Shown: piece by piece, positions 2,620 through 64,000 of the stretch
How the letters are laid out: every line of letters starts with the position of its first letter
How positions within the stretch are numbered: position 1 is the stretch's first letter
Source of the DNA: a virus
Lineage: Duplodnaviria > Caudoviricetes
Direction: 5' to 3' (one strand)
Virus record (IMG/VR): IMGVR_UViG_3300021426_000063
Location: 1 to 64,000 of that record
DNA: 64,000 bases
Translations under genes and position numbers: made by a program
The notes under the pieces: generated by a model
What the model was told of the DNA's origin: nothing
Databases searched by the model: none
What the model saw: the letters and a program-made list of their open reading frames with translations, nothing else

Positions 2620-2620
2620 A

Positions 2621-6260: not shown

Positions 6261-6286
6261 CTTTAAAAGTAAAAACCAAATTAAAT

Positions 6287-9200
6287 ATGGCAGAGAATGA
6301 CAACATAATCTTCCCAGTAGGTGATGACAGAGAGAACCTTGAAATTAGGAAAATCAACAACAATGGTACAATTGGTGAATTGATTGAAACTGTTAATACT
6401 AATTTTGAGAACATTGCCAGGCATGGTGGTGGTCCCGCTGGTAAGGATGGTATAAATGGTCTTGATGGCGTTGATGGTGTAAATGTAGAATACATCTACT
6501 GTCTTAGTGATGAGATGGTAGAAGGAGTTCATTATCCATCATCAGATAGAGATAAGAGTATATTGTTTGAAAAATTACAAGCACAGTATGAATCAAAATA
6601 TACTGGTGAAGGTGGAGTACAAACAACTTGGTATAACTATGCTCAACCAATATCAATAGACCAGAAGAATGAATATGTTATGGCCAGGTATAAAATCACT
6701 GAATACAACTGGGCATATGCTGATCCTGTATTGTGGGCCCACTGGGGTGAAACAGGTAAGGATGGTGATGGTGTAGAATACATCTTCTTACAGAGTACAA
6801 AAGAATTAAATGGTGAAGAACTTGATAATCTCATCCTCAAAAAGGAACATATGACATCACCAGAATATAAAGAATATCAAAAAATCATCTATGGTCTTGA
6901 TGAATTCTATCCTGGTGAGACCTGGTTCAATGCAGAAAACAAACAAAGGGCAAGAATGGCCATTACAAATGCCGGTATCACCATCAATGAAGGTGGTTTT
7001 AATATCTTGTGGCAACAGAGGTTTGGATTCTTTACAAATGGTGAGAGTAATAAATGGACAGATGAACCAAAGGGAACAGGATTTGTACCCAATTCTGATT
7101 CTGATGTTCAAAAGAAATTGATTCAGTTTGAATATGTTTCAATCCGTAGATCATATAGAGATGAGAATGATAAGAAGGTATGGACTGATTTCTCTGTTCC
7201 ATCTATTTGGAGTAATTATAGTCTTCCTACTGCAACTGTAATGATTTATTACAATGCTGATGAGGATGAAACTCCAACTGGTCCAGCAGTTGGTACTGGC
7301 TATTATAATTGGACTACAAAGAGTCTTGATTTTAATGGTAAGTCTGATGCTGCTGATGATGATATTCCTTCAGGCTGGACTGAACATCATGATGAAGCAG
7401 AAGGAAAGATTGTCTGGATGTGTTATGGTCTTTTTGACAATACAGGTGAGAACCAGACTTGGTCTTCTCCAGTAAGACTTACAGGTGAACCTGGTAAAGC
7501 TGGTGAAGATGGTACATTCATTGAATTCATCTATACATCTGTAGAGAAAAATGGTACATATAATTATCCTATAGATGATCAAGTAGCAGCAAATAAACTA
7601 TTTGATGATGTAGAAGCAGCAGCAGACCATCGTGCTGAATATAGAGGTACATTTTGGTGGGATAGAGCTCTACCAATATCATATGATGAACCTATTGTAT
7701 ATGTATGGATTAGACGTAAATCCAATGGTTCTGATTGGGTTGTTGACCCAGCACCAATAGTATGGTCAAGATGGGGTGAAGATGGTATGGATGGTGATGG
7801 TGTAGAATACATCTTTGTTACAACCAATGCTAATTTGCCAGAAGATCTTTCACTTCCAAAATATAGTAATTTGAACCCATATCAGAAGAAACTCTTCCAG
7901 ATTAATGATTTTATTCCTTCTGCAAACTGGTTTGTTGAAAATAATAAACAGAAAGCAATAGATGTACTTAAAGGTTCATTCAGTGAAGAGCAATGGACTA
8001 ACAAATATGGATTTGATAGTTATTCAGCATGGACAGATAATCCTGCTTCCGTAGATCCTGAACACAAATATCAGTGGGTATCTATCCGTAGAAGTGAGAA
8101 TGATGAGAGAGGTAAGGCTGTATGGCAGGACTTTGGTGAACCAAAACTCTGGTCTAAATACAGTACATCTATATTCACAGCATATGCATTCATAGCAACA
8201 AAAGCATATGATGATTTGAGTGGTTATCAACCACATGGTCTTGTTTCAATCAGTGACCCAAGACCTGAAAGTGGTGACACATATCAGGGTGTACAAATTA
8301 CCTGGACAGATGGTCCTGTAACAAGTATTGATAAACCTGTTGTATGGGTTACATCTGCAAAAGTAAATGAAGATAATCTCTCTACCATCCAGTGGTCTCG
8401 TCCTATAAAGATGGCAGATACTGCTGAATTCAATGTTGAGTGGTGTTCTGATGATATTATGGGTGATAATCTTGCAACTCTTATTGATGAACTTGCTAGT
8501 TCTGAATATAATTTTGGTAGATTCCTTGCTGATAATAACAACATTGAATCCGATGCAGAAGATGCTTGGAGAACTTATGTACAGGAACAACTTGGTCTTG
8601 AATTTTCAGACAGTACAGAGAATGCAATCTTGATGGCAACCTGTCAATATACAAGTGGTACCTGGTCAAACTGGGAACTTGTCAGAGTGAAAGGTGAGGA
8701 TGGTGAGGATGGTAGACCTCTTAATGTAGTAGGTAGGATTCAGAAGGAATTGTATCTTCCTGAAAACACAGAATATACTCTTTCTTCTGCAACTGCATAC
8801 TTAAATGCACATCAGCCATCATCAGCAAACAATGGTGATTTGTTGATTGTTTATCCACATACAACTGATGCTGGTAACAATGAAAGTGGTATCTATTATG
8901 GTGATGACACCGGTGATAAGGGTGGTGCTCTTTATATGTGGGTATATCATAACAACTCTTGGGTTGATTATAACACATCATCTAATGGTGAGACAACATA
9001 CAACACATATGCAAGTCCAAATTGTCATCTTATCCTCTGGGATGGTGATTCTTGGCAGGATATGGGTAGATTCAAGGGTGACACTGGTGACAGATATGCT
9101 CTACTTGTCAAGTATGCAAATGATGTCAATGGTGTAAGAACCTATGTATCAAGTGACCCATCTGCAAAATGGATTGGTGTATTGACATATATTGATGGTT

Positions 9201-12200
9201 CTGAAAATCCTAATGATATCCTTGTTGATGACCCAAGATGGAACTGGTCATTGTTCAAAGGTCAGGATGGTTATGGATATGAATATATCTTCAAGAGAAC
9301 AAGCAATAATTCTGCTCCATCAGTTCCTTCAACAACAAGTGAACAAGACAGGACTGATGAATTCCATCCAAATGGTTGGTCAGATGAACCAATGGAACCA
9401 ACATCTGATAACAGATATGTATGGATGTGTTGGAGAAAGTATGACAAGAACAATGGTGTCTGGTCAAAGTTCATGGGTGAACAAAACAAGACATCAGAAC
9501 AGAGTGGTCTTGCCAAGCGTTGGAACATCTTTACAAATGGTATCACTGGTGTTGTAGAATACTTCCATGCTGATACAACTAGTAGTCCTTCTGATGCAGC
9601 ATATAATGGTGATCCAACAGATTATCCTAACTATTGGTTCAGTAGTTCTTCTGCTGCTGGTTGGGGATTGAACAAGAAGTATCTCTTCAATGTAGAGGTT
9701 ATTGAGTATCTTGATGGTTCAGCACAGATTATGGATCCTCACTTTGTAACAATGTATGAGGATGGTATCAAAGATGTTACTGATTACTATTGTCTTGATA
9801 GTGATGGTGAAACAGCACCAGCAATGAGTGGTGGTGTTCCTGTAACAACCGGTACATCACAAATGGAAGGTAAGAGTTGGTGGACAACCAATGCAAAGAA
9901 GACACCTATTGGTAGAGGATATGAATACCTTTGGAATATAACCAAGAAGACTTATGAAGGCGGAAAAGCAGATGAATGGACAACACCTCTTGTAATTGGT
10001 GTTTATACAGAAGGTAGTAGTACTATCTATGCAGACCTTGATAATGAGATGGATTCTGTTCAGGTTGACAGTGACAAGAAAGTGATTACTGCAAGTACAT
10101 TCACAAGTCATCTTACAATGTATTATGGTCAGGAAAAACTTAACATCACAAGATGTGATATATCAGGTGAAGAACCATTAAGTGGTAAGATTTCATTCTC
10201 TACTATCCCAAGTGGAGGTACAGATACTGTTACAATGACATTAAATCTTAATCAGGGTTATCAACTCCCTGAATTGAGTCATAAGATTGTATTTACAGTA
10301 ACTGCAAATCTTCCTGGTAATGGTGGTCAGGTATCAAGAATTGCAACATATACACTTCTTGCAACAACACATGAATATGTATATTCTATCAATATAGCTC
10401 CTAATTCTATTATCAAGCCAACATCAGGAGCAATAAATCCTAGTACTTTAAGTATTAGTGTTGTTGAAAGAAATGGTATAAATACAACAGAACATACAAG
10501 TCCTAATAGTAGATTTGATGTATATGTAAGTAAGAATGGTGGTTCAAAGACAAAATTGACAACATTCAGTTATTCTACAAGTGGTTTGGATATCAATGAT
10601 AGAATCACATTCACAGTTGAAGTACCAGTCAATGGTACAAATATAGTGCTTGATACAGAAACAATATATGTATTGAGAGAAGGTACAGATGGTACAAATG
10701 GTACAAATGGTGCAGCTGGTAATGGTTATCAGTATTGTTATGTAAGATATACTAATGCTGATGAATCAAAATATGGTGGTGCAACTACACCAACTGTAAC
10801 ACAAGCATATACAACATCCAATCCAACATTTAAGATTGGTAATGAACCTGTACCATCATCATCAACACCACAGGGTGCCGATGCTGAACATACTTATGAA
10901 TATAGGTCAGAAAGAAGTGGTTATGATGGTAACTGGAGTAAGTGGTCAACACCTGTGACCATTGCAAAGTATCTTGATGCAGGTGATATTGAATCAACCA
11001 TAACAAGAGAGGTGAATAATGCTGTTAGTTCTGCTGAACAAAGAATAAATAATAATTTAAGTAGTACTATCAGTAGAGTAAGTACAATTTCAAATTATAT
11101 TGATTCCATTGATGGATATATTACAGAAAGTGGTGTATTCTCTGGTACAATATCAACAAGTACTATGGCAGGTATTGTAACTGCTGTTACAAGTAGTTCA
11201 TCATTTGCAAGTAGTGTAACAACACAATTGAATGGTATAGTTGCTGATATAAGTGGTGTTACAACATTTTCAGATTGGGTAAATACTGAAACAAGTGAAA
11301 TTAGAACAGCAAATCAAAGAATCACTTCAATGGCAAGTGGTATGACAACAATAGAAAATAATGTCACTTCTGTTTCACAGGGTGTTGCTACCAATGCTGC
11401 TAATATACTTACTGTTACTTCAAATTATGCAGAAATTGCTAATATAGTAACAACAATGAGTAATACTGTTGCAGGTATAAAGCAAACAGTAGATGCTGGT
11501 GTTGCTGCTGTTGACATCTTTGTAAATAAGGATGACCATAGTGCTGGTATGGTATTCCAGGCAACTGGAAGTGGTTCTGAAATTGCATTGAGAGCTGACA
11601 GAGTTGGTATACAGTCAAACTACTTCAATCTTGATAGTAATGGAATAAGATTTAATTCAAAATCTGGTCAAACAAGTTTGGGTATAGATGGTATACTTCG
11701 TGCTGAAAATGCTGTCATTTCTGGTAATATAAAAGCACAAGAGTTTGAAGCAAATATGCAAACATCAATAAGTGCAACTGCAACAGTAGATGGAACACAA
11801 AAAACAATAACTGGTACAGCAAATAAGATTACACTCATTGATGGACAATCTCTTACAATCACAGCAACAGGTACAGTTAATGTTGGATCAGATACAAAGA
11901 ATATCAATAATTCATTGTATATTAAATTGGTTGATGTTCTTGATAATCCAAATAATTCTGAATTTAATTCTGATAAACTTATCTGTGTACCTGTATTGTG
12001 TATGAATTATAATGGTAAAGAATATATGTTGAGTCCAGCATCCTGGATGACAAATAATGTAATTGCAGACACATCTAATGCAAAATGGATGTCTATGGGT
12101 ACATATTATACATATGGTTTCTCTGCACCATCATCATCTACAAAATACTGTGTTACTGGAACATCATCTCAAGCAGGATGTACATATTATGTTGCACAAT

Positions 12201-13132
12201 CTGGAAATCTTGTATCTAATTTTGGTTCAATAGGATTATATAGAATGACAATTTTGGATTGGGGTACACAAGAAGCAAACTTCAAACAATCTTTTATAGA
12301 TAGAGGATTGTTAGATAGTACTGGAACAATTGGTACAATTACAAAACGAAGTCGCATTGGTGATGCAGCATATATTGGATCAAGTACACAAGCAAAGATT
12401 ACACAAAATCTTATTAATACATATGGTGGTACAGGTTCAGCTTCTGGATATAAATTAACAAGTTCAGAAGATTTTATGGAATATATATCTGTTTCAAATA
12501 TTACTGATGTATCAACATATGGTTTACAAAATATGATAGACTATTTAAATGCTCGAGTTAATCAAGATAAACATGGTAATGATATTATTTGGAGTTCTCA
12601 TTATGAAGGTATGCCTGGTCAGGCAACATTAGATAATATTAGTGTACAAAATATTTTGCCATATACAAACCAAGTATCTTCATCTGATTATAGTGATACA
12701 TGTTCATTAAATTTATCTGTTGGTTATTTGCGTACATTATCAAGTCCATACTTTAATTTTAATTCAACAATTAAAGAAATATATTGTAGATATAGTTTAG
12801 AAGTAACTCGTATAATTGATAATGGTAATCAGGATTATCCTGTTTATATGACAGCATATAATAATCCAAACAATGGTATATATACTTATCCCGGTTGGAT
12901 TAGAGAAAGATTTACATTTGATTTTATTTTAAGTCCAACTAGTACACTTACAGACTATAGTTCTATTTTAACAAAAGTAAAAACATTTTTGGAAAATATT
13001 GATCCATTATCAATATTTGGAGCATATGTCCAAGGTAGAGTAAGTGTTGGTGAATTTAATATATGGATTTCAGAAGGTGAGGGTGAACAAGATATTGCAT
13101 ATATTACAGGTCAAACAGAAGAACCAGCTTAA
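6287..13132 (+). CDS. Giant tail fibre / host-specificity protein (about 2280 aa)
   Basis: Collagen-like GxDG linkers, repeated DGxGVEYIF...WTDxP...WSxP modules, coiled-coil stalk and S/T-rich C-terminal part; preceded by a late promoter; ATG 6287 preferred. Confidence 0.75.
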   Translation: MAENDNIIFPVGDDRENLEIRKINNNGTIGELIETVNTNFENIARHGGGPAGKDGINGLDGVDGVNVEYIYCLSDEMVEGVHYPSSDRDKSILFEKLQAQYESKYTGEGGVQTTWYNYAQPISIDQKNEYVMARYKITEYNWAYADPVLWAHWGETGKDGDGVEYIFLQSTKELNGEELDNLILKKEHMTSPEYKEYQKIIYGLDEFYPGETWFNAENKQRARMAITNAGITINEGGFNILWQQRFGFFTNGESNKWTDEPKGTGFVPNSDSDVQKKLIQFEYVSIRRSYRDENDKKVWTDFSVPSIWSNYSLPTATVMIYYNADEDETPTGPAVGTGYYNWTTKSLDFNGKSDAADDDIPSGWTEHHDEAEGKIVWMCYGLFDNTGENQTWSSPVRLTGEPGKAGEDGTFIEFIYTSVEKNGTYNYPIDDQVAANKLFDDVEAAADHRAEYRGTFWWDRALPISYDEPIVYVWIRRKSNGSDWVVDPAPIVWSRWGEDGMDGDGVEYIFVTTNANLPEDLSLPKYSNLNPYQKKLFQINDFIPSANWFVENNKQKAIDVLKGSFSEEQWTNKYGFDSYSAWTDNPASVDPEHKYQWVSIRRSENDERGKAVWQDFGEPKLWSKYSTSIFTAYAFIATKAYDDLSGYQPHGLVSISDPRPESGDTYQGVQITWTDGPVTSIDKPVVWVTSAKVNEDNLSTIQWSRPIKMADTAEFNVEWCSDDIMGDNLATLIDELASSEYNFGRFLADNNNIESDAEDAWRTYVQEQLGLEFSDSTENAILMATCQYTSGTWSNWELVRVKGEDGEDGRPLNVVGRIQKELYLPENTEYTLSSATAYLNAHQPSSANNGDLLIVYPHTTDAGNNESGIYYGDDTGDKGGALYMWVYHNNSWVDYNTSSNGETTYNTYASPNCHLILWDGDSWQDMGRFKGDTGDRYALLVKYANDVNGVRTYVSSDPSAKWIGVLTYIDGSENPNDILVDDPRWNWSLFKGQDGYGYEYIFKRTSNNSAPSVPSTTSEQDRTDEFHPNGWSDEPMEPTSDNRYVWMCWRKYDKNNGVWSKFMGEQNKTSEQSGLAKRWNIFTNGITGVVEYFHADTTSSPSDAAYNGDPTDYPNYWFSSSSAAGWGLNKKYLFNVEVIEYLDGSAQIMDPHFVTMYEDGIKDVTDYYCLDSDGETAPAMSGGVPVTTGTSQMEGKSWWTTNAKKTPIGRGYEYLWNITKKTYEGGKADEWTTPLVIGVYTEGSSTIYADLDNEMDSVQVDSDKKVITASTFTSHLTMYYGQEKLNITRCDISGEEPLSGKISFSTIPSGGTDTVTMTLNLNQGYQLPELSHKIVFTVTANLPGNGGQVSRIATYTLLATTHEYVYSINIAPNSIIKPTSGAINPSTLSISVVERNGINTTEHTSPNSRFDVYVSKNGGSKTKLTTFSYSTSGLDINDRITFTVEVPVNGTNIVLDTETIYVLREGTDGTNGTNGAAGNGYQYCYVRYTNADESKYGGATTPTVTQAYTTSNPTFKIGNEPVPSSSTPQGADAEHTYEYRSERSGYDGNWSKWSTPVTIAKYLDAGDIESTITREVNNAVSSAEQRINNNLSSTISRVSTISNYIDSIDGYITESGVFSGTISTSTMAGIVTAVTSSSSFASSVTTQLNGIVADISGVTTFSDWVNTETSEIRTANQRITSMASGMTTIENNVTSVSQGVATNAANILTVTSNYAEIANIVTTMSNTVAGIKQTVDAGVAAVDIFVNKDDHSAGMVFQATGSGSEIALRADRVGIQSNYFNLDSNGIRFNSKSGQTSLGIDGILRAENAVISGNIKAQEFEANMQTSISATATVDGTQKTITGTANKITLIDGQSLTITATGTVNVGSDTKNINNSLYIKLVDVLDNPNNSEFNSDKLICVPVLCMNYNGKEYMLSPASWMTNNVIADTSNAKWMSMGTYYTYGFSAPSSSTKYCVTGTSSQAGCTYYVAQSGNLVSNFGSIGLYRMTILDWGTQEANFKQSFIDRGLLDSTGTIGTITKRSRIGDAAYIGSSTQAKITQNLINTYGGTGSASGYKLTSSEDFMEYISVSNITDVSTYGLQNMIDYLNARVNQDKHGNDIIWSSHYEGMPGQATLDNISVQNILPYTNQVSSSDYSDTCSLNLSVGYLRTLSSPYFNFNSTIKEIYCRYSLEVTRIIDNGNQDYPVYMTAYNNPNNGIYTYPGWIRERFTFDFILSPTSTLTDYSSILTKVKTFLENIDPLSIFGAYVQGRVSVGEFNIWISEGEGEQDIAYITGQTEEPA

Positions 13133-34006: not shown

Positions 34007-34039
34007 AAAAAAAGATGAGGAACTATGCCTCATCTTTTT
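34007..34039 (-). terminator. Intrinsic terminator
   Basis: AAAAAGATGAGG-aactatg-CCTCATCTTTTT; related hairpins at 32564-32591, 39860-39888 and 40552-40575. Confidence 0.7.
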
Positions 34040-37000
34040 ACTTTTTTATACAACCAATATCTAAATGAATCATCTCCCCCATCTTCTTCATACCTTTCAT
34101 ACCATTTAGGATATGCATTTATCAACTCATCTTCATCATACTTTTCATCTTCTGGAATTTCAGGATTTGGGTCTAACCTCCTTGGGTCCAGGTCATAGAT
34201 ACTCTTTGGAAGGGATTCTGAACTGGATGGAGAGGAGTCTGGTTCAACAATCTCTTCCTCCTTCACCTTTGAGAAATCAATCTCCTTTCCATCATAACCA
34301 AGGATATCATCAGTTGTCTTTGGTTGAATATTTTCTCTTACAAATTTCCTGATGTCTTCAGGAACATTGTATTTATCAAAGAGACCTTCATCAATCTCAT
34401 CTATCTTATCAGAGTTCCAAAAGTCTTCTGAATAGTCTTGTATGGGAACAGAAACCCAATATTGTTTTAAATTATCTCGAGAATATTTTTTGTTAATTAA
34501 AAGTGCTCTTGCAAATTTACTTATACAATATTTTGCATGTTTTTTTGCTTCTTCAAAATCTTTACAATATCCAGATTCAAGATAGTTATCTGTACATATA
34601 TCATTTGGACCAACTATTATAATATCACCATATGTGCCTCCTAAATATTTTTTGTCAAAACCACCCCATGTCTTTGGTAATAAAATTTTCCATACACCTT
34701 TATGACAATCTATATGTGGTTTTGGTAAAGGATAATTTTTATCAACATATTTTATTGTTCTTAATCCATCCAATATACCAAAAATTTTTATATCATCATC
34801 ATTCTCTTTTTTGTCTTTAAATGTATTTGGTAAACCATATTTTTCTGGACTCTTGAAGAAATTTGTTTGTAAATTATAAGGTACTCTATTAGTAATAACT
34901 GTATCCATACCTGTACAATCTCCAACACAATCAACAAGTTTTTTAATTTCTTCTGGTTTTATAATATCATCATTTTTAATTGGTAATTTAATCTCTTTTG
35001 GATTTTTACCATCAGTATACACCAATTGTTTTCCTTCAAGTCCATTATCATATCCTTTTTTCCAATAAATAATATTTGTTTTTTTAGCACCTGTAACACC
35101 TTTAAATCCATCAAAAATATTATTAATTGAAATGATTTGTTTATCATATTTTACATCAGGTGTATTCATCAAACTTAAACCATTACCAGACTTTATATCC
35201 TGCCATCCAACCGGAAATATCATACTCATCTGGTCACAATTCTGTTTAGCCCAAATATAGAATTGTGGATATATTTGTTTTTTACCATTATTATATGGTG
35301 GATTCCCAACTATTACTGACCAGCGCATATTGTTACTTTCTATTATTTTTCCCCATTTTCTCTTAATTGATCTATCAAGACCATCTATCATTGACATATC
35401 TACTTCATCTGAATCTCCTTCATCATATTCATCATAATCTTCTTCATTCTCCTCATTTATCTTATGAATGAATGAATCAAATGTGTCAAGATTGATATAT
35501 CTGTTTTCATCCACTGGTGATGGTCCATCTATCAAATTACCATTCTCATCAACATTATAATCTGTTGTATCCTTCTCTCCATCATCACCAAGGACATTAT
35601 ATACAAGAATATGTTCATCCAACCACTGACGCCTCTCACTTATACTCTTACCCAATTGTTCAAGTAACATAGATAGAGTCTTCTTGTTAAGTGCTGCTAT
35701 CTTATCTGTTCTACACACAAGATAATAGTTATCAATATTAGCACTTGATAGATTATCTTCATTTGTATCACTAAATAGATAGTGAGCAATTTCTCCTATC
35801 TTACTTCCATAGAAGTCAAGAATAGTCATATCTTTATTAAATATAACAAAATCTCCATTACCATCCATAAACAGTTTCTTACAAATACCTCCATCTATTT
35901 TATCACCTGTTTTATATGGTGTAATGACTTCTGTATTACCCAATCTATCATAGAAGTCTTGTAGAGTTATTCTCATTTGCTCATAATCAGAATAATTACT
36001 CTTAAACAATGTCTGTGCTGAAACAATAATCTCCTTCAACTCTCCTTCTCTACCAAGTGGAACAATGATATCATTATACCAGGTCTGTAATTTGCCCTTA
36101 ATTCTTTTTGCTGTATATATATCATATGCCAATTGCTTATCCGGGTCATTCGAATGTCTCCACTTAATTCCAAGGTCATCTGCAAAGATGGCTGCTGTTA
36201 TAGATGCATTTGATGGATGGTCTTTGTGATACAGGTCATCCCAAACTCTGTTAATCTTATACACCTTCTCCTTATCCTTTGTGAACTTCAACAACATAAA
36301 GAGCAAAATGTCTCTGATGATAGTCTCATTCATCTGTGCCAAACTGTTGAGTTCATCTGCATATGTACCTTCATATTCATGTGTAGACATCTCCCTGGTA
36401 ATCTTTTTACCATCCTTACCTTTCATTTCTGGTGCCTCACCTTTGGCATGTGTACCAGGACCCTCCATAGCTGCTGTTGATTTTAATGGTGCAAATCTCT
36501 TTGACTTCTTAATAGTCTTCATCCAATCACCAGGTTTAACTCCTTCAACCCCCCAGTCATATGTTCTCTTCAACAATGTACTTACAGGTGTGTGTTTTCT
36601 ATAATCATCAATAATCTCTATCATTGATGTAGATTTACACCTTTCAAGTTTATTGTCTTTGAATATAAGATATGGCATACAATCCATCTCTTCCTCATAT
36701 TTCCTCTCTATTAAATCATCAGTATCATCCTTCTTTGCATCTTCACCTCTTGAATCATCACCATTCCTGGCCTCTGCCTCATACCTCTGCCTCATCATAT
36801 CCAATATTCTATATGGTGAGAAATCAACAAACAAAGTCTGTGGTTTCATATCAATCTTTGTTGGTGTTCCCAACTTAATATTACCTTCATCATCCAACTC
36901 TACTGTCTCTACCTCCTTGACATAAGGACTCATAATTCTGAATTTTGCCTGGTCATACTCCTGTGGAGACTTACAGTCCTTCATATAGAACATAGTATCC

Positions 37001-39813
37001 CAAGGTTCAACAGTAACACCTGTCAACATCTTGACCACAGTCAATGTAATAGTCTTGTTGCCTGCTTCTGCATACTCTCTAATCTGTTTCTTTGCCCATT
37101 CTGTACTTACAGGTTCAATCTTACTTGCTGCCTTTACAATCATATACTTTTTCAGATTAGGAAAATCTTTTATTGGAGCATCATTAATCATCTTCTCCAA
37201 GGCATCACAGCAGATTCTGTTTGGTAACACAATCACAATATGCTTACACATATTACCTTTCTTGATTTCAGGAAGGTTAATAAGTGACATCACACCGGTT
37301 TCCTTCACACCAGTACCTCCATCGAGAAGCTGGAACAACTTCTTGATGGCTTCTTTATATTTAAATACAGGTGTATCCTTATCTTTTGTCTCAAACAACT
37401 TACCAAATGTGAATTTGGTCTTCTTCTTCATATAAGTATCAAGTCTGAATTCCTCTAACTTATATCCATACTGTAACATCTGAGGAATACCAAAGTATGG
37501 ATTATCCTCCCAGTGTTTCTCCTTACCATTATCATTATATGGATCACCTGGAATGTCAACCTTACTATGTGACAAGATAAATGGTGCATGGTCTTCTGCC
37601 CACTTTTTCTTTGCACCAATCAATTCCTTGAATGAGAACTTTGCAATAATGTCCTTCTCTTTGAATTTACTTCCAAGCATCAGTTTATATGGTGTTCCTG
37701 AAAGATACAGTCTGATTGCATTCTTCAAATTCAACATTCTTTCTGCTGCATCCTCTGTCTCCTGGTCTCCACCATCATCTCCATCTTCTTCATCATCTGG
37801 AACATAATCTTCATCAGGAGTATATGCCTCATTGACTTTCTGCTCACCCGTTGCCTTACCAAGTTTCTGACCTTCAACAGCAAAGTGTGCCTCATCAAAG
37901 ATAATCAAATCAACAGGACACTCAAAGAAACTGATATGCCTATCCTTTACTTCTGCCTTGACCAATTCTCCATCCTTGTGTCTGTCATTAACATCACCAT
38001 TCAAGTCTTGTAATGAGACAAATATCACAATCTTCTTATCCTTATGTAACTGTAAATACTTTTCAAGAGATGGTGTCAATTTAACCTTTGGTTTTCCATC
38101 CTTATCCAATACTGGTTTTCCTTCCAAATCAACTTCTGGTTCTTTATCACACCAGTCTTCCTTCTTCATTTTGACTGTACCATCTGGATTAAGTTCATTA
38201 TTGTTCAACAGCCAACTGATACCCTGTTCTGTATCAGATGCATCATACATATCATAACCTTTGAAGTCACTATATGGATTGATTGTTTTGATCCATTCAT
38301 TCTTTACATCAACCTTTGCAGATGCAACAACTGTAAGTCCAGAAACATGTTCTGTATGATGTTTATAGAAATTCTTCATACACTCAAATGCTGTGTATGT
38401 CTTACCAAATCTCATAACAGCATACATAAGTAACTTCTTTCCACCAAGACCAACTCTCTCCTCAAACTTATCAACAGTCTCCTGCTGAAGTCCCCTCAAA
38501 GTATATTTCCTGGTTTCATTATGTGTAGGAGGAATAATATCATCATTCCTGGTATTTGTATATTCCTTTAATTTAGAAAGAATAGACTGTCTTCCTGCAA
38601 TTGCCTTTTCTTTTAATACTTCTATGGCCAATTCAACATCATCTGGTGTACAATTTTCAAAGAACTCCTTTGAATATTTCTTTGCCTGATAATCACTGTC
38701 TCTGAATTCATCTTCCGGAATAATCCTTCTGATGTCTTTATTATCATTCAATTTCTTAATATCTTCACCAACAAGGATATTATGGATTGTATAATCCCTG
38801 AACATCTTACCTTTCAATCCTTCACCACAGGATTTTGGTAATATTGCACTCCACTCCCAGGATTTCTCATGAATGACCATACCTTCTTCCTTACCAAACA
38901 CATCCTTCCATTCAGTTATTCTCTTTGCCACACCTCTGTTAGTATCTCCAACCTTTAATGGATGAATATCCCTTCCTGTTTTCTCCTTAATACTCTCATC
39001 AGCATAGTTTGAATAGAAAGCATATATTTTAGGTGTTGTAACACCCTTAATTAAATCACCCTCAACAGTGACATCACTCATCATATCTGACTCATCAAGT
39101 TCAACACCTGTGACACCACCACCTTTAACATCATCAATATTATTAAGATGGTCACCACTATTGGTAAATACAATTGACAACTGTCTCTCTGTCTTATCTG
39201 GGAATCTATACACCTTTGATGTTTTATCAGATGGGAATAAATCTGCCTTTGCTATATGAAGATGTCTTGATTTATATAGGATTTTATCAAACTGATTTGA
39301 CACATTACTTTCATCAAATGTGTAATACCTTGACTGACCCTTTGTATAGACAAATTCACCAGAAATATATGGGTAGTTAAATATGTATAAGTTCAAATCT
39401 GCAATAACACCATATGTGTAAGGTGGTTCAATTTTCAATGATATGTTATAGATATAATCAATTACACCTTTTATGTTCCACCCATCAAATATTTCCTGGA
39501 TTTGAGTTTTTGTTGAATCTGAAATCCCATCCTTTTCTTCACTTGGTGTGACTTCTACATACTGATAATTGTCTTTATGAATAGTTTCTGTGTCATCAAA
39601 ATAGATACACCACACTTTCATATCAAAATCTCTTTCCAATCTTTGAGCAAAAGGAACATCATTGATGACCAAACAGTTCAAACCACTATCAGCATCTTTT
39701 GATAGTGCTGTTCTACTTATCAGCTTATTATAAAACTTATCTTGATTTTCAATTTTGATTTTCTTGGTTATACTCTCATTCAAGAAATCTTCAAAACTTT
39801 TTAGATTCAACAT
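34030..39813 (-). CDS. 1927-aa fused restriction-modification-like enzyme: GIY-YIG/T5orf172 nuclease, SF2 (ResIII-like) helicase, Eco57I-like N6-MTase and TRD, with a capsid-targeting-like leader
   Basis: KIYAF...LKVGDT..R..KRI...KEFF; LRGLQ, AVMRFGKT, IFDEAH, LSGTP, MLTGVTV; EVITP, ILDFYGSKIGE, IVGNPPY; N-terminus MLNLKSFEDFLNES. Confidence 0.8.
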   Translation of the reverse strand: MLNLKSFEDFLNESITKKIKIENQDKFYNKLISRTALSKDADSGLNCLVINDVPFAQRLERDFDMKVWCIYFDDTETIHKDNYQYVEVTPSEEKDGISDSTKTQIQEIFDGWNIKGVIDYIYNISLKIEPPYTYGVIADLNLYIFNYPYISGEFVYTKGQSRYYTFDESNVSNQFDKILYKSRHLHIAKADLFPSDKTSKVYRFPDKTERQLSIVFTNSGDHLNNIDDVKGGGVTGVELDESDMMSDVTVEGDLIKGVTTPKIYAFYSNYADESIKEKTGRDIHPLKVGDTNRGVAKRITEWKDVFGKEEGMVIHEKSWEWSAILPKSCGEGLKGKMFRDYTIHNILVGEDIKKLNDNKDIRRIIPEDEFRDSDYQAKKYSKEFFENCTPDDVELAIEVLKEKAIAGRQSILSKLKEYTNTRNDDIIPPTHNETRKYTLRGLQQETVDKFEERVGLGGKKLLMYAVMRFGKTYTAFECMKNFYKHHTEHVSGLTVVASAKVDVKNEWIKTINPYSDFKGYDMYDASDTEQGISWLLNNNELNPDGTVKMKKEDWCDKEPEVDLEGKPVLDKDGKPKVKLTPSLEKYLQLHKDKKIVIFVSLQDLNGDVNDRHKDGELVKAEVKDRHISFFECPVDLIIFDEAHFAVEGQKLGKATGEQKVNEAYTPDEDYVPDDEEDGDDGGDQETEDAAERMLNLKNAIRLYLSGTPYKLMLGSKFKEKDIIAKFSFKELIGAKKKWAEDHAPFILSHSKVDIPGDPYNDNGKEKHWEDNPYFGIPQMLQYGYKLEEFRLDTYMKKKTKFTFGKLFETKDKDTPVFKYKEAIKKLFQLLDGGTGVKETGVMSLINLPEIKKGNMCKHIVIVLPNRICCDALEKMINDAPIKDFPNLKKYMIVKAASKIEPVSTEWAKKQIREYAEAGNKTITLTVVKMLTGVTVEPWDTMFYMKDCKSPQEYDQAKFRIMSPYVKEVETVELDDEGNIKLGTPTKIDMKPQTLFVDFSPYRILDMMRQRYEAEARNGDDSRGEDAKKDDTDDLIERKYEEEMDCMPYLIFKDNKLERCKSTSMIEIIDDYRKHTPVSTLLKRTYDWGVEGVKPGDWMKTIKKSKRFAPLKSTAAMEGPGTHAKGEAPEMKGKDGKKITREMSTHEYEGTYADELNSLAQMNETIIRDILLFMLLKFTKDKEKVYKINRVWDDLYHKDHPSNASITAAIFADDLGIKWRHSNDPDKQLAYDIYTAKRIKGKLQTWYNDIIVPLGREGELKEIIVSAQTLFKSNYSDYEQMRITLQDFYDRLGNTEVITPYKTGDKIDGGICKKLFMDGNGDFVIFNKDMTILDFYGSKIGEIAHYLFSDTNEDNLSSANIDNYYLVCRTDKIAALNKKTLSMLLEQLGKSISERRQWLDEHILVYNVLGDDGEKDTTDYNVDENGNLIDGPSPVDENRYINLDTFDSFIHKINEENEEDYDEYDEGDSDEVDMSMIDGLDRSIKRKWGKIIESNNMRWSVIVGNPPYNNGKKQIYPQFYIWAKQNCDQMSMIFPVGWQDIKSGNGLSLMNTPDVKYDKQIISINNIFDGFKGVTGAKKTNIIYWKKGYDNGLEGKQLVYTDGKNPKEIKLPIKNDDIIKPEEIKKLVDCVGDCTGMDTVITNRVPYNLQTNFFKSPEKYGLPNTFKDKKENDDDIKIFGILDGLRTIKYVDKNYPLPKPHIDCHKGVWKILLPKTWGGFDKKYLGGTYGDIIIVGPNDICTDNYLESGYCKDFEEAKKHAKYCISKFARALLINKKYSRDNLKQYWVSVPIQDYSEDFWNSDKIDEIDEGLFDKYNVPEDIRKFVRENIQPKTTDDILGYDGKEIDFSKVKEEEIVEPDSSPSSSESLPKSIYDLDPRRLDPNPEIPEDEKYDEDELINAYPKWYERYEEDGGDDSFRYWLYKKVKR

Positions 39814-39844
39814 AACCTACCATTTTAAAATTCAATATACAAGT

Positions 39845-39852
39845 TATTTATG
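39845..39852 (-). promoter_or_regulatory. Late-type promoter CATAAATA
   Basis: 31 nt upstream of the ATG of the 1927-aa gene. Confidence 0.6.
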
Positions 39853-39891
39853 GGGTATGAAAAAAGTGAGGAACTTTCCTCACTTTTTCTT

Positions 39892-40518
39892 CTAATCCAT
39901 AGGATGTGACCTTGAGAATTCAGGTATCCAACTCTTCGCATATTTCTCAATACCTTCCTGTCTAATAAAGTTTTCATATCTTTCCCTTCTAAACTGTGTC
40001 CTTTTGACATCATCATTTTTATCAGGATAAACTTTATGAGCAAGTTCAGTATATTTAATCCATTTTTCCATACACCTGTTATAGTTATAAGTTTTCCATT
40101 GATTTCTCTGCAATTCTCTTAAATATGATTTATAGTCATATAACCCCTTCTGTCTTTTTAGAATACTTTTAAATGTTGATAAAAGAAGTCTATCTTTTTC
40201 TGCAACTGTCAAACCCTGCAAACCATCATCTTCACCTTTCTTTACCCATTTTACCAATGACTGCCAAACCTCATTATATTTGTTTCCTTCAATTTGAGCC
40301 TTCTCATATGGATTGAAAGAATTTGTTGATATATTTGTATTAACAAATGATTTATCTTCCTTGTGTTTATATATTGCAGCAGCCAGATATGGGTCTGTTT
40401 TTGGGTCTCCTGTAAATTCTTCTGGCATATTACTTGGAACAACTTCTGGAAAATCGGGTTGTTCAACTTCTTCATAAATGAATCTTTCATTTATAAATTC
40501 TTCAAATTTAAGTACCAT
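39892..40518 (-). CDS. Hypothetical protein, candidate internal head protein
   Basis: N-terminus MVLKFEEFINE; own CATAAATA at 40541-40548. Confidence 0.7.
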   Translation of the reverse strand: MVLKFEEFINERFIYEEVEQPDFPEVVPSNMPEEFTGDPKTDPYLAAAIYKHKEDKSFVNTNISTNSFNPYEKAQIEGNKYNEVWQSLVKWVKKGEDDGLQGLTVAEKDRLLLSTFKSILKRQKGLYDYKSYLRELQRNQWKTYNYNRCMEKWIKYTELAHKVYPDKNDDVKRTQFRRERYENFIRQEGIEKYAKSWIPEFSRSHPMD

Positions 40519-60034: not shown

Positions 60035-61777
60035 TTAATAAAGACTTACGCCTTCACCAAGTTTGATGTCGAATGAGTAGTAGTACAACTGTGGGTGATG
60101 ACCAGCACGAACGATTGCATAACGAGACTTCAATGAAGTAACAGGAGCACCTTCCATACCTTCAGCAGGATATGAGAGTTTGTCAGCCATCAAGTAAGGC
60201 ATGAATACAAGACCAGGCTCGTTATCCTTACCCTTTCTACCAACAACAACCTTTGTTGAAGCCCAAGGCATATTAGGATCAACATAGATAGAAACACCTG
60301 AAATTGCACCTACTGGGTAGAGTGAACCAGCGTTCTGGTTGATAGTATTTGAAAGAGGATATGCTACGAAACCAGCGCAATCCTGGAGAGCAGTAGCAAT
60401 AGCAGCTGAGCAAACTGCGAAGGTACCAGCACCTCTACGACCTCTCTGAGCGATGAGGTTAGAAGCAGCAAGAATCTTACTCATGATTCTCCTCTGGATA
60501 GTACCGAGGGTCTCAGCACCACCACCTACATATGACTTGGTGTAACCTTCAACATCAGCAGCAGTAGGATCAACTACAAAGTAAGTATTGAGGTTGATAC
60601 CTTCGAATGCCTCTGCTTCAATGTGGTTCTGGTCACCGAGAGCAAAGATTTCATCAAGAAGTTCACGGTTGATGTGCTGTGTCAACTCATTTACAAGCTC
60701 TGCTTCTACCTGAGCAACTGCATCAATACCATAAGCCTTCAAGTCCTGGATCTGCTCACGAGTGATAGCACCCTTAACCTGGATGGTCTTAGCCTTAACA
60801 CTCAAAGTGAAGGTATTAAGAGACATCATATTTGAAGGAGTTGATTCACCAGTCTCTCTGTCATATGCCTTTGCAGACATAGGATCACCATTCTTGAAAC
60901 CATTACCTGAGAAACCAGGGATGAAGTCTTCGAGAGCCTTTACAGTGTCAATGTCAACTACATAGAACTTTGAACCATCCTTACCAGTGATAATAGGTTC
61001 GTCAACAAGGAGAGTTTCTGCAAGTGAAGCAGCAGCACCCTCACCACCATTAACCTTACCAAGACCAGCATAGTAAGCCTTTTCCTTTACCTGGAAGATA
61101 GGACGACCGTCGATACGACCAAGAGCAACAAAGATGAGCTCATAATCACCAACAGAGATAGGATCCATATGAGGAACAAAAGCCTTCTGGAGGTCTTTGA
61201 ATTTAAGAGCATGGTTGATTGCATCTTCGTTTACCAATGCAGCATCTGACTTAAGAGCATTCTCGATATCGCTATCAGAGTTTGCATCACCTGCTGAAAG
61301 GGTCAACTTAACCATAAGAGGAGCAGTCTTTGATTCATCTGCACCCTCGAAACGAGGACGGAAGTTAGTCTTACCACCTTCATATACATAATCCATGTAC
61401 TGGAGGATACCAAGAGGTCCCTGCATAGGTACTACTGGAACAAGATCAAGAGCGATTGTCTGAGCAGCTACCTGAACAGCAAGTGGAAGAAGTGAGAATG
61501 GGTTATCACCTGAACCACGAACACCATCATAACCATTGTTAGGATTTGCGCCTGGGAAGTAAGCAGCACCCATACCACCAACATTCATATTAGGATTGAG
61601 ATGTGCATAACCAAGAGCACTCTCATTAAGACTCTGCTTCTCATTCATATCATGATAAGCACAGTACTTTGACATCCAAGTCAATTTTGCACGATCAGTA
61701 ACGCCAGTTGACTCAGTGATAAAACCTGACCAAGTTTTCAAAACCTCAGCCTCGTTCAAAATAACATTCTGTAACAT
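60035..61777 (-). CDS. gp23: Major capsid protein (T4 gp23-like)
   Basis: DLVPVVPMQGPLG, EQIQDLKAYGID, NELTQHINRELL, IAQRGRRGAGTFAVCS, VYVDP-like, PGLVFMPY, LKSRYA; highly expressed codon bias. Confidence 0.95.
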   Translation of the reverse strand: MLQNVILNEAEVLKTWSGFITESTGVTDRAKLTWMSKYCAYHDMNEKQSLNESALGYAHLNPNMNVGGMGAAYFPGANPNNGYDGVRGSGDNPFSLLPLAVQVAAQTIALDLVPVVPMQGPLGILQYMDYVYEGGKTNFRPRFEGADESKTAPLMVKLTLSAGDANSDSDIENALKSDAALVNEDAINHALKFKDLQKAFVPHMDPISVGDYELIFVALGRIDGRPIFQVKEKAYYAGLGKVNGGEGAAASLAETLLVDEPIITGKDGSKFYVVDIDTVKALEDFIPGFSGNGFKNGDPMSAKAYDRETGESTPSNMMSLNTFTLSVKAKTIQVKGAITREQIQDLKAYGIDAVAQVEAELVNELTQHINRELLDEIFALGDQNHIEAEAFEGINLNTYFVVDPTAADVEGYTKSYVGGGAETLGTIQRRIMSKILAASNLIAQRGRRGAGTFAVCSAAIATALQDCAGFVAYPLSNTINQNAGSLYPVGAISGVSIYVDPNMPWASTKVVVGRKGKDNEPGLVFMPYLMADKLSYPAEGMEGAPVTSLKSRYAIVRAGHHPQLYYYSFDIKLGEGVSLY

Positions 61778-62521: not shown

Positions 62522-64000
62522 TTAATATTTCCTCATTCTTCTTTGAATCTGTTCCTTCATTGCCTGAAGTCTTTCATCTGAAACTACATTCTCATTAACA
62601 GCGGTTGGCTGTGCAACAGCAGCTTCATCAACCTTCTTGAGTTCAATCTGCTTGTCTCTGAAATCTCTGGTGTTCCAGAAATATTCTGCACTGGCCTGGT
62701 TGTTAATTACAAACATCTTTGCTTCTGCCAGAATTTCTTGTTTTCTCTCATCTGAAAGTTTTGACCATCTTTCATTGAGTCTTTCAGGAAGATAGTTGAT
62801 AAGTGTGAAGTTCTTTGTATCAACTCCCTTCTTTGACTCTTCAAGTGCCTTTGCCTCTGCTGCCTTTGCTTCTGCATAAGCTGCTTTTGCTGTGGCAAGG
62901 ATTGCATCAAGTCTCTCTGAAAGTTCAGTTCTGTATGCCTTTGCATCAAACTTCTCTTCCTTAACAGTAGTTGCAGGTTCTGTTGTACCTTCACCCTCTG
63001 TGTTGGTGTTCTCATTGACTGACTCATTCTCAACTGTTGCAGCAGGTTCTGTTGTTGCTGCTGGTTCAGCAGGAGTATCTTCCTTATTTTCTACAATAAT
63101 GTTTCCACCCATCTTGTTAACTTCCTCAACAATGTAATCCTGATGCTCAATCATCTGGTTCATCTTTTCTGCAAGGTAGTCATTGTGAGCAATACTCTTG
63201 TTCTGTTCCTCTGCGAGCATATTTGAATAATCAATAGACTTATCCAACATTTCTGCTACATAGTTCTGATAAGAGATGGTGTCATTGATGTTCTCTGCAA
63301 GATAATCCTGGTGAGCAATCATCTGGTTCATCTTCTCTGCAAGATAATCATTGTAACCAACCATCTTGTTCATATTCTCTGCAAGATAATTGTTGTGCTC
63401 AATGATCTTGTTTGCCTCATCAGCAATGTAATCCTGGTGAGTGATTGACTTATCAAGTGTCTCTGCAAGATACTTGGTATAAGCTTTGAGATTATTGTAG
63501 GTCTCTTCAACAACAGCAAGTTTTGCTTCAAGTTCAACAACCTTCTGCTCATTAGCTGCACCTTCACCCTTTGCCTTTGCTACTTCCTTTGCTACAAGAT
63601 CAGCGATCAAAGAGTTATCAATAGTTGCTGGGTCAAAAGTCTGGGTAGGAGTTTCTCCACCTTTCTCTTTATAACTAATCAACTCATCCTTGATATTGGA
63701 AATGGCAGACTGAAGTTCACCAACAATCTCTGAGAGATGTTCACTGTACTTCTGAAAATCAGCGTACTGAATGAATTTGTTGTCTTCCATATTTGTATTT
63801 TTTAATGTATCTTCATTTCTCTGTGCCTGTGGTTCTGCATAGTCAACAGTCTTCTCAACCTTTGGATCCAACTCTGTATTGGCATCTTCTGAAATATCAT
63901 AGATGTCAATGTTTTCATCATCACCAAATCCATAAGATTCATTGACCCTCTTCAACTGTGCATTGGCAAAACCAGGATCTGCAACAAGGTCATAAGTGAA
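62522..64000 (-). CDS. gp21: Prohead protease (gp21-like) fused to scaffold/core protein (gp22-like); 5' end lies beyond the window
   Basis: The frame stays open to the edge and reads FTYDLVADPGFANAQLKRVNES (gp21 C-terminal catalytic Asp motif), then an acidic coiled coil with 14-aa YLAE repeats. Confidence 0.82.
   Translation of the reverse strand, partial: FTYDLVADPGFANAQLKRVNESYGFGDDENIDIYDISEDANTELDPKVEKTVDYAEPQAQRNEDTLKNTNMEDNKFIQYADFQKYSEHLSEIVGELQSAISNIKDELISYKEKGGETPTQTFDPATIDNSLIADLVAKEVAKAKGEGAANEQKVVELEAKLAVVEETYNNLKAYTKYLAETLDKSITHQDYIADEANKIIEHNNYLAENMNKMVGYNDYLAEKMNQMIAHQDYLAENINDTISYQNYVAEMLDKSIDYSNMLAEEQNKSIAHNDYLAEKMNQMIEHQDYIVEEVNKMGGNIIVENKEDTPAEPAATTEPAATVENESVNENTNTEGEGTTEPATTVKEEKFDAKAYRTELSERLDAILATAKAAYAEAKAAEAKALEESKKGVDTKNFTLINYLPERLNERWSKLSDERKQEILAEAKMFVINNQASAEYFWNTRDFRDKQIELKKVDEAAVAQPTAVNENVVSDERLQAMKEQIQRRMRKY
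63130..63485 (-). repeat. 42-bp (14-aa) degenerate tandem repeat in the scaffold (HxDYLAExMNxxI)
   Basis: About 8 consecutive units in the translation. Confidence 0.8.

What the first reader, a model, noticed from the sequence alone, without database searches (positions are those of the whole stretch)
34030..39852. Giant nuclease-helicase-methyltransferase that looks capsid-targeted
Seen: one 1927-aa ORF joins a GIY-YIG/T5orf172-like nuclease, an SF2 helicase (MRFGKT, DEAH) and an NPPY MTase with a TRD. It has a late-type CATAAATA promoter and begins MLNLKSFEDFLNES. Established: T4 internal proteins carry a capsid-targeting leader (MKTYQEFIAE) cleaved by gp21 after Glu, and this phage's capsid and scaffold contain similar LNES/VNES sites. 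Inference: a complete restriction-modification-like machine may be packaged and injected with the genome. It could methylate incoming DNA, or cut host or competitor DNA before gene expression starts.
Basis: partly seen in the sequence, partly recalled or inferred. Interest (0 to 1): 0.85.

Follow-up and report, generated by a model that had tools for sequence, protein, structure and literature searches.

The report
Capsid-addressed restriction-modification enzyme of a huge phage
A huge rumen or gut phage carries a bacterial-type all-in-one restriction-modification enzyme that it expresses late and has fitted with a T4-style capsid-targeting leader, so it is probably packed into the virion and delivered with the DNA, an independent parallel to phage P1's DarB.

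Summary
Window 34030-39813 (minus strand) is one 1927-aa ORF with its own CATAAATA promoter and flanking terminators.

Its domains, in order:
- 13-residue leader
- T5orf172/GIY-YIG-like domain
- SF2 motor
- NPPY methyltransferase
- target-recognition domain
- acidic tail

From residue ~256 it is collinear with a bacterial ~1350-aa family that PADLOC calls a Type IIG REase-MTase.

The capsid-targeting reading passed every test I could run:
- The phage has a T4 gp21-type protease and a gp23-type capsid protein with an LNE|S site.
- The leader matches the four key positions of the T4 capsid-targeting sequence.
- About 10-15 other proteins, most behind or just downstream of late promoters, carry similar leaders.
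- The leader is 80% identical across phage homologs that share only 30-39% overall.
- 0 of 89 bacterial homologs have it.
- All five homolog loci examined keep the late promoter. One sits directly after the capsid gene.

The target-recognition cassette has been swapped between otherwise identical genes.

Packaging, cleavage, ejection and enzyme activity are all untested. The nearest known analogue is P1 DarB, which shows no sequence similarity. I class this as a new variant of a known kind.

First-stage readers of this scan noted the same leader family in this genome, not on other DNA.

The parts
39845..39852 (-). Late-class promoter core CATAAATA, 31 nt upstream of the ATG
   Evidence: Seen. 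It is the most enriched upstream 8-mer in the genome. It is conserved at -36 to -41 in five homolog loci.
39859..39883 (-). Terminator hairpin (GTGAGGA-AAGT-TCCTCAC plus a T run). It ends the upstream gene and isolates this transcription unit.
   Evidence: Read directly. The same hairpin precedes the homologs in L006 and L021.
39775..39813 (-). Leader, residues 1-13 (MLNLKSFEDFLNE). This is the candidate capsid-targeting propeptide, with predicted cleavage after E13.
   Evidence: The T4 capsid-targeting rules come from PMC9026906 and PMC8442874.
39157..39759 (-). Phage-specific N-terminal extension, residues 19-219. It has a class I SAM-methyltransferase-like Rossmann fold and no glycine-rich loop.
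   Evidence: AF2 model and VIA Z of about 12. It is absent from bacterial forms. No relatives were found outside this family.
38524..39048 (-). T5orf172/GIY-YIG-like putative nuclease domain, residues 256-430
   Evidence: Fold support is weak.
36574..38505 (-). SF2 (ResIII-type) ATP-dependent motor, residues 437-1080
35884..36573 (-). Helical region joining the motor and the MTase, residues 1081-1310
   Evidence: Aligned with the bacterial family. No family name was found.
35134..35883 (-). Gamma-type N6-adenine MTase core, residues 1311-1560. It has a motif I-like ILDFYGSKIGE and GNPPY at 1503-1507.
34324..35133 (-). Target-recognition domain, residues 1561-1830. It is part of a swapped cassette spanning about residues 1490-1850.
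34030..34323 (-). Acidic C-terminal tail, residues 1831-1927, plus the stop codon. It is phage-specific.
34009..34039 (.). Bidirectional terminator-like hairpin overlapping the stop codon
35837..35853 (-). Internal copy of the second promoter-class motif (GATTTTGTTATATTTAA), just before MTase motif I. An in-frame ATG (M1329, 35827-35829) follows 8 nt later.
39892..40518 (-). Upstream 208-aa gene with its own CATAAATA (40548) and a sister leader, MVLKFEEFINE
   Evidence: No Pfam family was found.
60035..61777 (-). Gp23-type major capsid protein with an SLNE52|S propeptide site and two CATAAATA promoters
62522..64000 (-). Gp21-type (Peptidase_S77) prohead protease fused to 14-residue repeats ending in YLAE. 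The gene runs on to genome position 64459.

Best explanation
The gene encodes a phage-adapted copy of a bacterial single-chain restriction-modification enzyme. The bacterial core runs T5orf172-like nuclease, SF2 translocase, N6-adenine methyltransferase, target-recognition domain.

Huge-phage versions add three things: a 13-residue leader, a ~200-residue Rossmann-fold domain and an acidic tail. The gene is its own transcription unit under the phage's late-class promoter.

Inferred mechanism:
1. The leader acts like the T4 capsid-targeting sequence and carries the protein into the scaffolding core of the prohead.
2. The gp21-type protease removes the leader after Leu-Asn-Glu13.
3. The ~220-kDa enzyme stays in the head with the DNA. 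No ATP is expected inside the head, so it should be inactive there.
4. It is ejected into the next host.
5. There it would act before any phage gene is expressed. It would bind unmethylated target sites, translocate with ATP and cut resident or competing DNA.
6. Phage DNA would be spared because the same enzyme marked it late in the previous cycle.

Shown here: the domain content, the late-class promoter, the leader family, the head module and the conservation pattern.

Inferred, not shown: packaging, cleavage, ejection and all enzymatic activities.
For: (1) Enzyme identity.
- PADLOC REase_MTase_IIG matches at E 1.8e-92.
- The bacterial relative P0108 fits that model end to end, 1475 bits.
- The alignment is collinear from residue ~256.
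- Nuclease-domain, motor and MTase residues are invariant in both phage and bacterial forms.

(2) Head module.
- Two Peptidase_S77 genes and a Gp23-type capsid protein are present.
- The capsid protein has SLNE|S where T4 gp23 has FLTE|A.

(3) Leader against the T4 capsid-targeting sequence MKTYQEFIAE.
- In T4, targeting depends on positions 4 and 7, and processing on positions 8 and 10 (PMC9026906, PMC8442874).
- Here F7, F10, L11 and E13 fill those four positions.

(4) A leader family.
- The pattern aromatic-x-x-aromatic-aliphatic-x-Glu falls in the first 25 residues 9 times out of 38 hits, against 7.6% expected (p 0.0017).
- Further variants follow CATAAATA.
- Bearers include unrelated enzymes.

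(5) Conservation.
- The first 10 residues are 80% identical in 23 homologs that share 30-39% overall.
- All 23 have an L/I/V-x-E site ending by residue 31.
- 0 of 89 bacterial forms have the motif.
- Synonymous codon differences in the leader point to selection on the peptide.

(6) Expression and context.
- The late motif lies at -36 to -41 in all five homolog loci.
- In L022 the gene directly follows the capsid gene on the same strand.

(7) Target-recognition cassette.
- P0004 is 100% identical over residues 1-1490 but only 47-87% over 1490-1850.
- Distant homologs are more alike in this domain than anywhere else.
- That fits selection on sequence specificity.

(8) Precedent for size. P1 DarB, 251 kDa, is packaged through a 30-residue N-terminal signal (PMC9024508).
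Against: - There are no virion proteomics, no RNA timing data and no biochemistry.
- 'Late' rests on analogy with T4 TATAAATA and on the motif's place before structural genes. No gp55-like sigma factor was found in the 62%-complete contig.
- The nuclease assignment is weak structurally (VIA Z 3.9 at best).
- No member of the bacterial family was shown here to restrict DNA. The related split system DnmA-YeeB-YeeC was inactive in B. subtilis (PMC9973331).
- In several homologs the first L/I/V-x-E site ends only at residue 27, so the exact cleavage point is not conserved.
- T4 internal proteins are small and basic. This protein is giant and rich in acidic stretches.
- A profile built from the protease's scaffold-like repeats did not pick out the leaders.
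Confidence: 0.55

Rival explanations
1. Packaged and ejected, but the job is protective, as with P1 DarB. The enzyme tracks along the entering phage DNA and methylates or shields it against host restriction. The nuclease-like domain would serve DNA binding or another role rather than attack.
For: - DarB is a packaged 251-kDa MTase-helicase that protects P1 DNA in cis (PMC9024508, PMC5512222).
- The MTase and motor motifs are intact.
- The phage invests heavily in DNA methyltransferases.
- The extra Rossmann-fold domain is methyltransferase-like.
Against: - There is no sequence similarity to DarB (best BLASTP E 0.086 over 26 residues).
- The T5orf172-like domain keeps every residue that is invariant in the bacterial family, in all phage forms.
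- A site-specific recognition domain that is swapped as a cassette is not needed for general protection.
- Methylating incoming DNA in time to beat host nucleases is kinetically hard.
Confidence: 0.22
2. Not packaged. This is a late-expressed cytoplasmic restriction-modification enzyme that marks progeny DNA, degrades host DNA or excludes superinfecting phages. The conserved N-terminus would serve another purpose, such as translation, folding, regulation, or a recombination joint for gene cassettes.
For: - The terminator, promoter and first codons are conserved at the nucleotide level between diverged phages.
- L007 holds a stub copy of the promoter plus ATGTTG. That would fit cassette exchange.
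Against: - The leader differs by synonymous changes while the peptide is kept.
- The same peptide pattern heads unrelated genes that have different upstream DNA.
- It always precedes an L/I/V-x-E site.
- It matches the T4 targeting positions in a phage that has a gp21-type protease.
Confidence: 0.18
3. Packaged but not delivered. The protein would be an internal head or inner-body component that organises the DNA, with vestigial enzyme domains.
For: Giant phages carry large masses of internal head proteins processed by gp21-like proteases (PMC9026906).
Against: - Catalytic motifs of all three enzyme modules are under the same constraint as in the bacterial enzymes.
- The cassette swapping of the recognition domain implies that sequence-specific activity matters.
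Confidence: 0.05

Closest known systems
Phage P1 DarB (defence against restriction), the archetype of the methylase-helicase dyad in 'polyvalent proteins' (PMC9024508, PMC5512222)
   Same: - A giant (~250 kDa) phage protein that joins an adenine methyltransferase with an SF2-type ATPase.
- It is placed in the head through a short N-terminal targeting signal.
- It is thought to enter the cell with the DNA.
   Different: - No detectable sequence similarity.
- The domain order is reversed, and DarB has no nuclease-like domain or swappable recognition domain.
- P1 uses a different head system and a different signal.
- The protein here descends from a bacterial restriction-type enzyme.
T4 internal proteins IPI-III and Alt, with the capsid-targeting sequence MKTYQEFIAE cut by gp21 at L/I-x-E (PMC9026906, PMC8442874)
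   Same: - An N-terminal propeptide of 10-19 residues.
- Aromatic residues at the two targeting positions, and an aliphatic-x-Glu cleavage site.
- A late promoter of the xATAAATA type.
- gp21/gp23-type head genes in the same genome.
   Different: - The cargo is ten to twenty times larger than an internal protein and is a multi-enzyme.
- The leader has three extra residues in front.
- The promoter core starts with C, not T.
- Packaging has not been shown.
Bacterial single-chain family PADLOC PDLC03626 'Type IIG REase-MTase' (for example P0108, labelled Gardnerella, and P0112, labelled Mesomycoplasma)
   Same: Collinear T5orf172-like, SF2, MTase and recognition-domain core with the same invariant residues.
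   Different: - Bacterial forms are 1300-1420 aa and start directly at the nuclease-like domain.
- Phage forms add the leader, the Rossmann-fold domain, insertions and an acidic tail.
- The phage forms make one clade (SH-like support 99).
Type ISP restriction-modification enzymes (LlaGI, LlaBIII); comparison from general knowledge
   Same: One polypeptide with nuclease, SF2 motor, gamma-MTase and recognition domain in that order. It is therefore the best model for how such an enzyme could work: translocation from an asymmetric site, then cleavage on collision.
   Different: - The nuclease here is T5orf172/GIY-YIG-like, not Mrr/PD-(D/E)xK.
- No sequence match to any solved structure.
DnmA-YeeB-YeeC, a split MmeI-like MTase, SF2 helicase and T5orf172 protein (PMC9973331)
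   Same: The same three activities are combined.
   Different: - They are three separate genes, bacterial, and not virion-linked.
- The system was reported inactive in B. subtilis, and active against some phages in Vibrio.

Membership tests
PADLOC PDLC03626 single-chain 'Type IIG REase-MTase' family | Significant match to the family profile | tested here: met
   E 1.8e-92 and 309 bits in 3 stretches. Coverage is broken by phage-specific insertions. The bacterial relative P0108 matches end to end.
PADLOC PDLC03626 single-chain 'Type IIG REase-MTase' family | N-terminal T5orf172-like domain with the family's invariant residues | tested here: met
   P261, Y264, K287, G289, T291, R298, D340, H344 and E383 are invariant across 20-50 sequences. 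Pfam T5orf172 hits the relative P0046 above its cut-off.
PADLOC PDLC03626 single-chain 'Type IIG REase-MTase' family | SF2 motifs I, II, III and VI, and MTase motif IV (NPPY) | tested here: met
   GKT 470-472, DEAH 640-643, SGTP 705-708, Q955/F958/R959 and GNPPY 1503-1507.
PADLOC PDLC03626 single-chain 'Type IIG REase-MTase' family | Site-specific cleavage and methylation | not testable with these tools
   Needs biochemistry or methylome data.
T4-type capsid-targeted internal head proteins | N-terminal propeptide with aromatic residues at the two targeting positions, ending in L/I-x-E | tested here: met
   F7, F10 and L11-N12-E13, against the rules in PMC9026906.
T4-type capsid-targeted internal head proteins | gp21-type prohead protease and gp23-type capsid protein in the same genome | tested here: met
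T4-type capsid-targeted internal head proteins | Late transcription | tested here: inconclusive
   The CATAAATA class precedes the capsid, protease and sheath-like genes. No expression data exist, and no gp55 homolog was found in the partial genome.
T4-type capsid-targeted internal head proteins | Presence in the virion with a processed N-terminus | not testable with these tools
   Needs proteomics of particles.
Type ISP restriction-modification enzymes | Single chain ordered nuclease, SF2 motor, MTase, recognition domain | tested here: met
Type ISP restriction-modification enzymes | Mrr/PD-(D/E)xK nuclease and sequence relationship to LlaGI/LlaBIII | tested here: not met
   The nuclease-like domain is T5orf172-type. 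No PDB chain matched by sequence or by profile.
DarB-type methylase-helicase dyad | Sequence homology to P1 DarB | tested here: not met
   BLASTP best E 0.086 over 26 residues. P1 was not among the tblastn hits.

The most novel reading that the evidence does not exclude
Virion-delivered restriction. A clade of huge gut phages captured a host defence enzyme and turned it into a pre-made weapon that enters the cell with the genome. It would destroy unmethylated host, plasmid or rival-phage DNA from time zero.

Specificity would be re-aimed by swapping recognition-domain cassettes. An internal promoter might supply a methylase-only form that keeps the phage's own DNA marked.
Probability: 0.3. Interest if true: 0.85.

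Novelty: new variant of a known kind. Interest (0 to 1): 0.66.

Why it matters
Phages are known to inject small anti-restriction proteins, an ADP-ribosyltransferase, RNA polymerases and DarB. I found no report of a complete nuclease-motor-methylase-recognition enzyme addressed to the capsid in the papers I searched.

If it is real, it shows three things:
- A bacterial defence enzyme has been turned around and used by a phage at the very first moment of infection.
- The T4 capsid-targeting code extends to uncultivated huge phages of animal guts.
- The leader gives a readable 'address label' for predicting the virion cargo of phages that cannot be grown. About a dozen other enzymes in this genome carry it.

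The conserved 10-13-residue leader could also serve as a packaging tag for protein delivery in related phages.

Tried and rejected
- PHROGs and NCBIfam gave no family for the protein.
- Megablast against phage records found nothing. tblastn found only six distant records, of which Lak-A2 and Lak-C1 cover residues 260-1007.
- The PDB sequence and profile searches gave no meaningful hit.
- Foldseek on the isolated T5orf172-like domain found nothing significant. The wide VIA search put the GIY-YIG nucleases HIGLE and Slx1 at the top, but only at Z 3.9 and 3.1. I treat that as weak.
- The exhaustive search with residues 1-255 found only this family and its fragments. The Atlas feature search returned nothing usable.
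- I tested the idea that the leader copies one unit of the protease's YLAE repeats. A profile built from the nine repeats placed only 4 of the top 40 hits at N-termini (p 0.37). The resemblance is therefore only qualitative.
- A search with T4 gp55 found nothing in this partial genome.
- No RNA holder was listed among the sequencing runs, so no reads were laid.
- A second cleavage site, LDE243|S, in the disordered linker before the nuclease-like domain is present in only about a third of homologs. I do not rely on it.
- The 208-aa upstream neighbour is not a conserved partner. The homolog loci have other neighbours.
- The IQ-TREE run did not finish, so I used FastTree. The root, and hence the direction of transfer, is not established.
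- I ran no complex prediction. The docking partner of the leader is unknown, and short helical peptides are prone to false passes.
Full report
**What is there.**

Window 34030-39813 (minus strand) is one open frame of 1927 codons beginning MLNLKSFEDFLNES. It is a self-contained transcription unit.
- A hairpin with a T run ends the upstream gene at 39883-39859.
- CATAAATA sits at 39852-39845, 31 nt before the ATG.
- A bidirectional hairpin overlaps the stop codon at 34009-34039.

The window is the first 64 kb of a 233-kb viral contig rated 62% complete, with 35% G+C. The capsid protein is closest to an uncultured 462-kb phage (45% identity) and to the Lak megaphages of Prevotella (33%). Runs that hold the stretch are mostly bovine and other gut metagenomes, none of them RNA.

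**Domain content.**

- Pfam finds ResIII at residues 437-708. The Eco57I methylase match is below its cut-off.
- PADLOC finds REase_MTase_IIG at E 1.8e-92 and MTase_II at residues 1495-1829.
- A database search returned two kinds of relatives.
  - Long forms of 1530-1936 aa lie on contigs up to 221 kb that carry phage genes.
  - Forms of 1300-1420 aa carry, where named, bacterial labels such as Gardnerella, Mesomycoplasma and Victivallales.
- One bacterial form fits the PADLOC model end to end, at 1475 bits.
- In alignment, the bacterial proteins begin at residue ~256 of the phage protein.
- This first shared domain hits Pfam T5orf172 above its cut-off in the bacterial relative P0046. Nine residues in it are invariant in 50 sequences.
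- An AlphaFold model of this domain alone (pLDDT 83) gave no significant Foldseek match. In the wide search the GIY-YIG nucleases HIGLE and Slx1 came top, but only at Z 3.9 and 3.1. The nuclease label therefore rests mainly on sequence.
- Motor motifs I, II, III and VI, a family-typical motif I-like segment, and GNPPY are all conserved.
- Residues 19-219 exist only in the phage forms. They fold as a class I SAM-methyltransferase-like Rossmann domain: VIA Z about 12 to FtsJ, Trm14 and METTL16, with about 160 residues aligned.
- This extra domain has no glycine-rich loop and no relatives outside the family. Its activity is unknown.

**The promoter.**

CATAAATA is the most enriched 8-mer upstream of genes in this genome. 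Of 62 copies, 47 lie within 100 nt upstream of a called gene on its strand, a 13.5-fold enrichment. It precedes the capsid gene (twice), the prohead protease and a sheath-like gene, among others.

A second class, TTTTTGTTATATTTA, precedes methyltransferase and other non-structural genes, often only 4 nt before the ATG.

Calling the first class 'late' is an inference. It rests on this association and on the T4 late promoter TATAAATA. A gp55 homolog was not found in the partial genome.

**The head module and the leader.**

The genome encodes two Peptidase_S77 (T4 gp21-type) proteins and a Gp23-type capsid protein. The capsid propeptide contains SLNE52|S. T4 gp23 has FLTE65|A at a comparable distance from the conserved IAFDICGVQPM block.

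Published work on T4 gives the rules:
- gp21 cuts after L/I-x-E;
- the ten-residue capsid-targeting sequence MKTYQEFIAE is sufficient for packaging;
- positions 4 and 7 are needed for targeting, and positions 8 and 10 for processing (PMC9026906, PMC8442874).

Shifted by three residues, the leader here puts F, F, L and E at exactly those four positions.

**Is the leader a signal?** Four tests say yes.

1. It is a family. The T4-derived pattern falls within the first 25 residues in 9 of 38 genome-wide hits, where 7.6% is expected (p 0.0017).
   - One of the nine looks like a spurious ORF.
   - Looser variants head further genes.
   - Bearers include the gene immediately upstream, a MATCAP-like peptidase, a metallopeptidase-VWA protein and an AAA ATPase.
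   - Those without their own late promoter lie directly downstream of late genes.
2. It is conserved far beyond the rest of the protein. The first ten residues are 80% identical in 23 homologs that share 30-39% overall, and each has an L/I/V-x-E site ending by residue 31.
   - The codons differ synonymously (TTG/TTA, CTA/TTA, AAA/AAG, TTC/TTT), so the peptide is what is kept.
3. None of the 89 bacterial forms has the motif.
4. All five homolog loci examined have the late motif at -36 to -41. In one, the gene follows the capsid gene directly on the same strand.

**Evolution.**

In a FastTree phylogeny the 16 leader-bearing forms make one clade with SH-like support 99. The Lak form is a long, unplaced branch, and the root is arbitrary.

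Between close relatives the gene is a mosaic.
- P0004 is 100% identical to this protein up to residue ~1490 and 97% at the very end, but only 47-87% between them.
- Homologs that are 35-40% identical elsewhere reach 60-62% in the recognition domain.

Cassette exchange of the specificity module is typical of enzymes whose target sequence is under selection.

**Mechanism and its rivals.**

I judge it most likely (about 0.55) that the protein is packaged through its leader, trimmed by the protease, carried with the DNA and delivered to the next host. There it would work as an ATP-driven, site-specific enzyme before phage genes are expressed.

Retention of every family-invariant residue of the nuclease-like domain, together with the recognition-domain swapping, favours an attacking role, with phage DNA spared by methylation. 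This role is modelled on Type ISP enzymes from general knowledge.

The main rival is a DarB-like protective role (0.22). DarB shows that a 251-kDa methylase-helicase can be packaged through an N-terminal signal (PMC9024508). The 'polyvalent protein' concept generalises this (PMC5512222). DarB, however, shows no sequence similarity to this protein.

A non-packaged late enzyme (0.18) and a purely structural head component (0.05) remain possible.

**An unexplained detail.**

One copy of the second promoter motif lies inside the gene on the sense strand, at 35853-35837. It covers the codons for D-F-V-I-F-N just before MTase motif I, and an in-frame ATG (M1329) follows 8 nt later.
- The same TTGTTATATTTAA lies at the same codons in three of five diverged homologs.
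- Given the amino acids, the chance of those codons is about 0.06 per lineage, or 2e-4 for three more lineages.
- The homologs lack an adjacent in-frame ATG.

An internal promoter giving a methylase-plus-recognition-domain product is possible but unproven.

**Verdict.**

The capsid-targeting interpretation is supported by all the computational tests available, but it is unproven. The thing is a new variant of a known kind, a virion-addressed multi-enzyme analogous to DarB, and it arose independently from a bacterial restriction-type enzyme.

Noticed in passing
genome-wide; in the window e.g. 31058, 41388, 44827, 50041, 54496 (minus strand): A second promoter-like class, TTTTTGTTATATTTA, with about 28 copies, almost all intergenic. 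It lies before methyltransferase and other non-structural genes. The ATG often follows only 4 nt later, which suggests leaderless transcripts.
   Followed up: partly
window 62522-64000 (the gene runs to genome position 64459): The gp21-type prohead protease is fused to nine 14-residue repeats, each ending in Y-L-A-E or similar. This looks like a built-in scaffold with a cleavage site in every repeat.
   Followed up: partly
window 1690-2649 (-): A second, shorter Peptidase_S77 paralog (27.6 bits), far from the head module.
   Followed up: no
genome 87856-91332 (locus L019): A 1158-aa late protein ends with VLSFEDFLIERY. This is a copy of the leader motif at the C-terminus rather than the N-terminus.
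   Followed up: no
genome 159205-160362, 169203-171458, 78402-80279 (L012, L014, L017): Other leader-bearing proteins are enzymes: a MATCAP-like peptidase, a DUF2201 metallopeptidase with a VWA domain, and an AAA_5 ATPase. In the last, the leader lies inside a longer open frame.
   Followed up: partly
L006 13787-16596: In a related huge-phage contig, the homolog is followed by genes with weak Cas6 and Cas7fv-like Pfam hits. This may be a phage-borne CRISPR-Cas module.
   Followed up: no
L007 7850-7920: A stub copy of the promoter, spacer and ATGTTG of this gene sits just upstream of the real promoter of the homolog. It hints at recombination at this joint.
   Followed up: no
L020 3731-8050 (Prevotella phage Lak-A2): With TAG read as Gln (27 in-frame TAG codons), Lak-A2 encodes a 1439-aa relative. 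It has the T5orf172-like, motor and NPPY modules but no Rossmann domain. Its ~85-residue N-terminal extension contains ISLNE|D.
   Followed up: partly
window 6242-13132 (+): A 2296-aa ORF behind a CATAAATA motif has no PHROG family. It is another giant late protein of unknown role.
   Followed up: no
genome 97719-100130 and 103578-104879: Two late proteins begin M-x-K-[IL]-S-(K-I-D)-E followed by SAWGDMMRRG. This shared tag, just after an x-S/D-E site, is distinct from the leader studied here.
   Followed up: no
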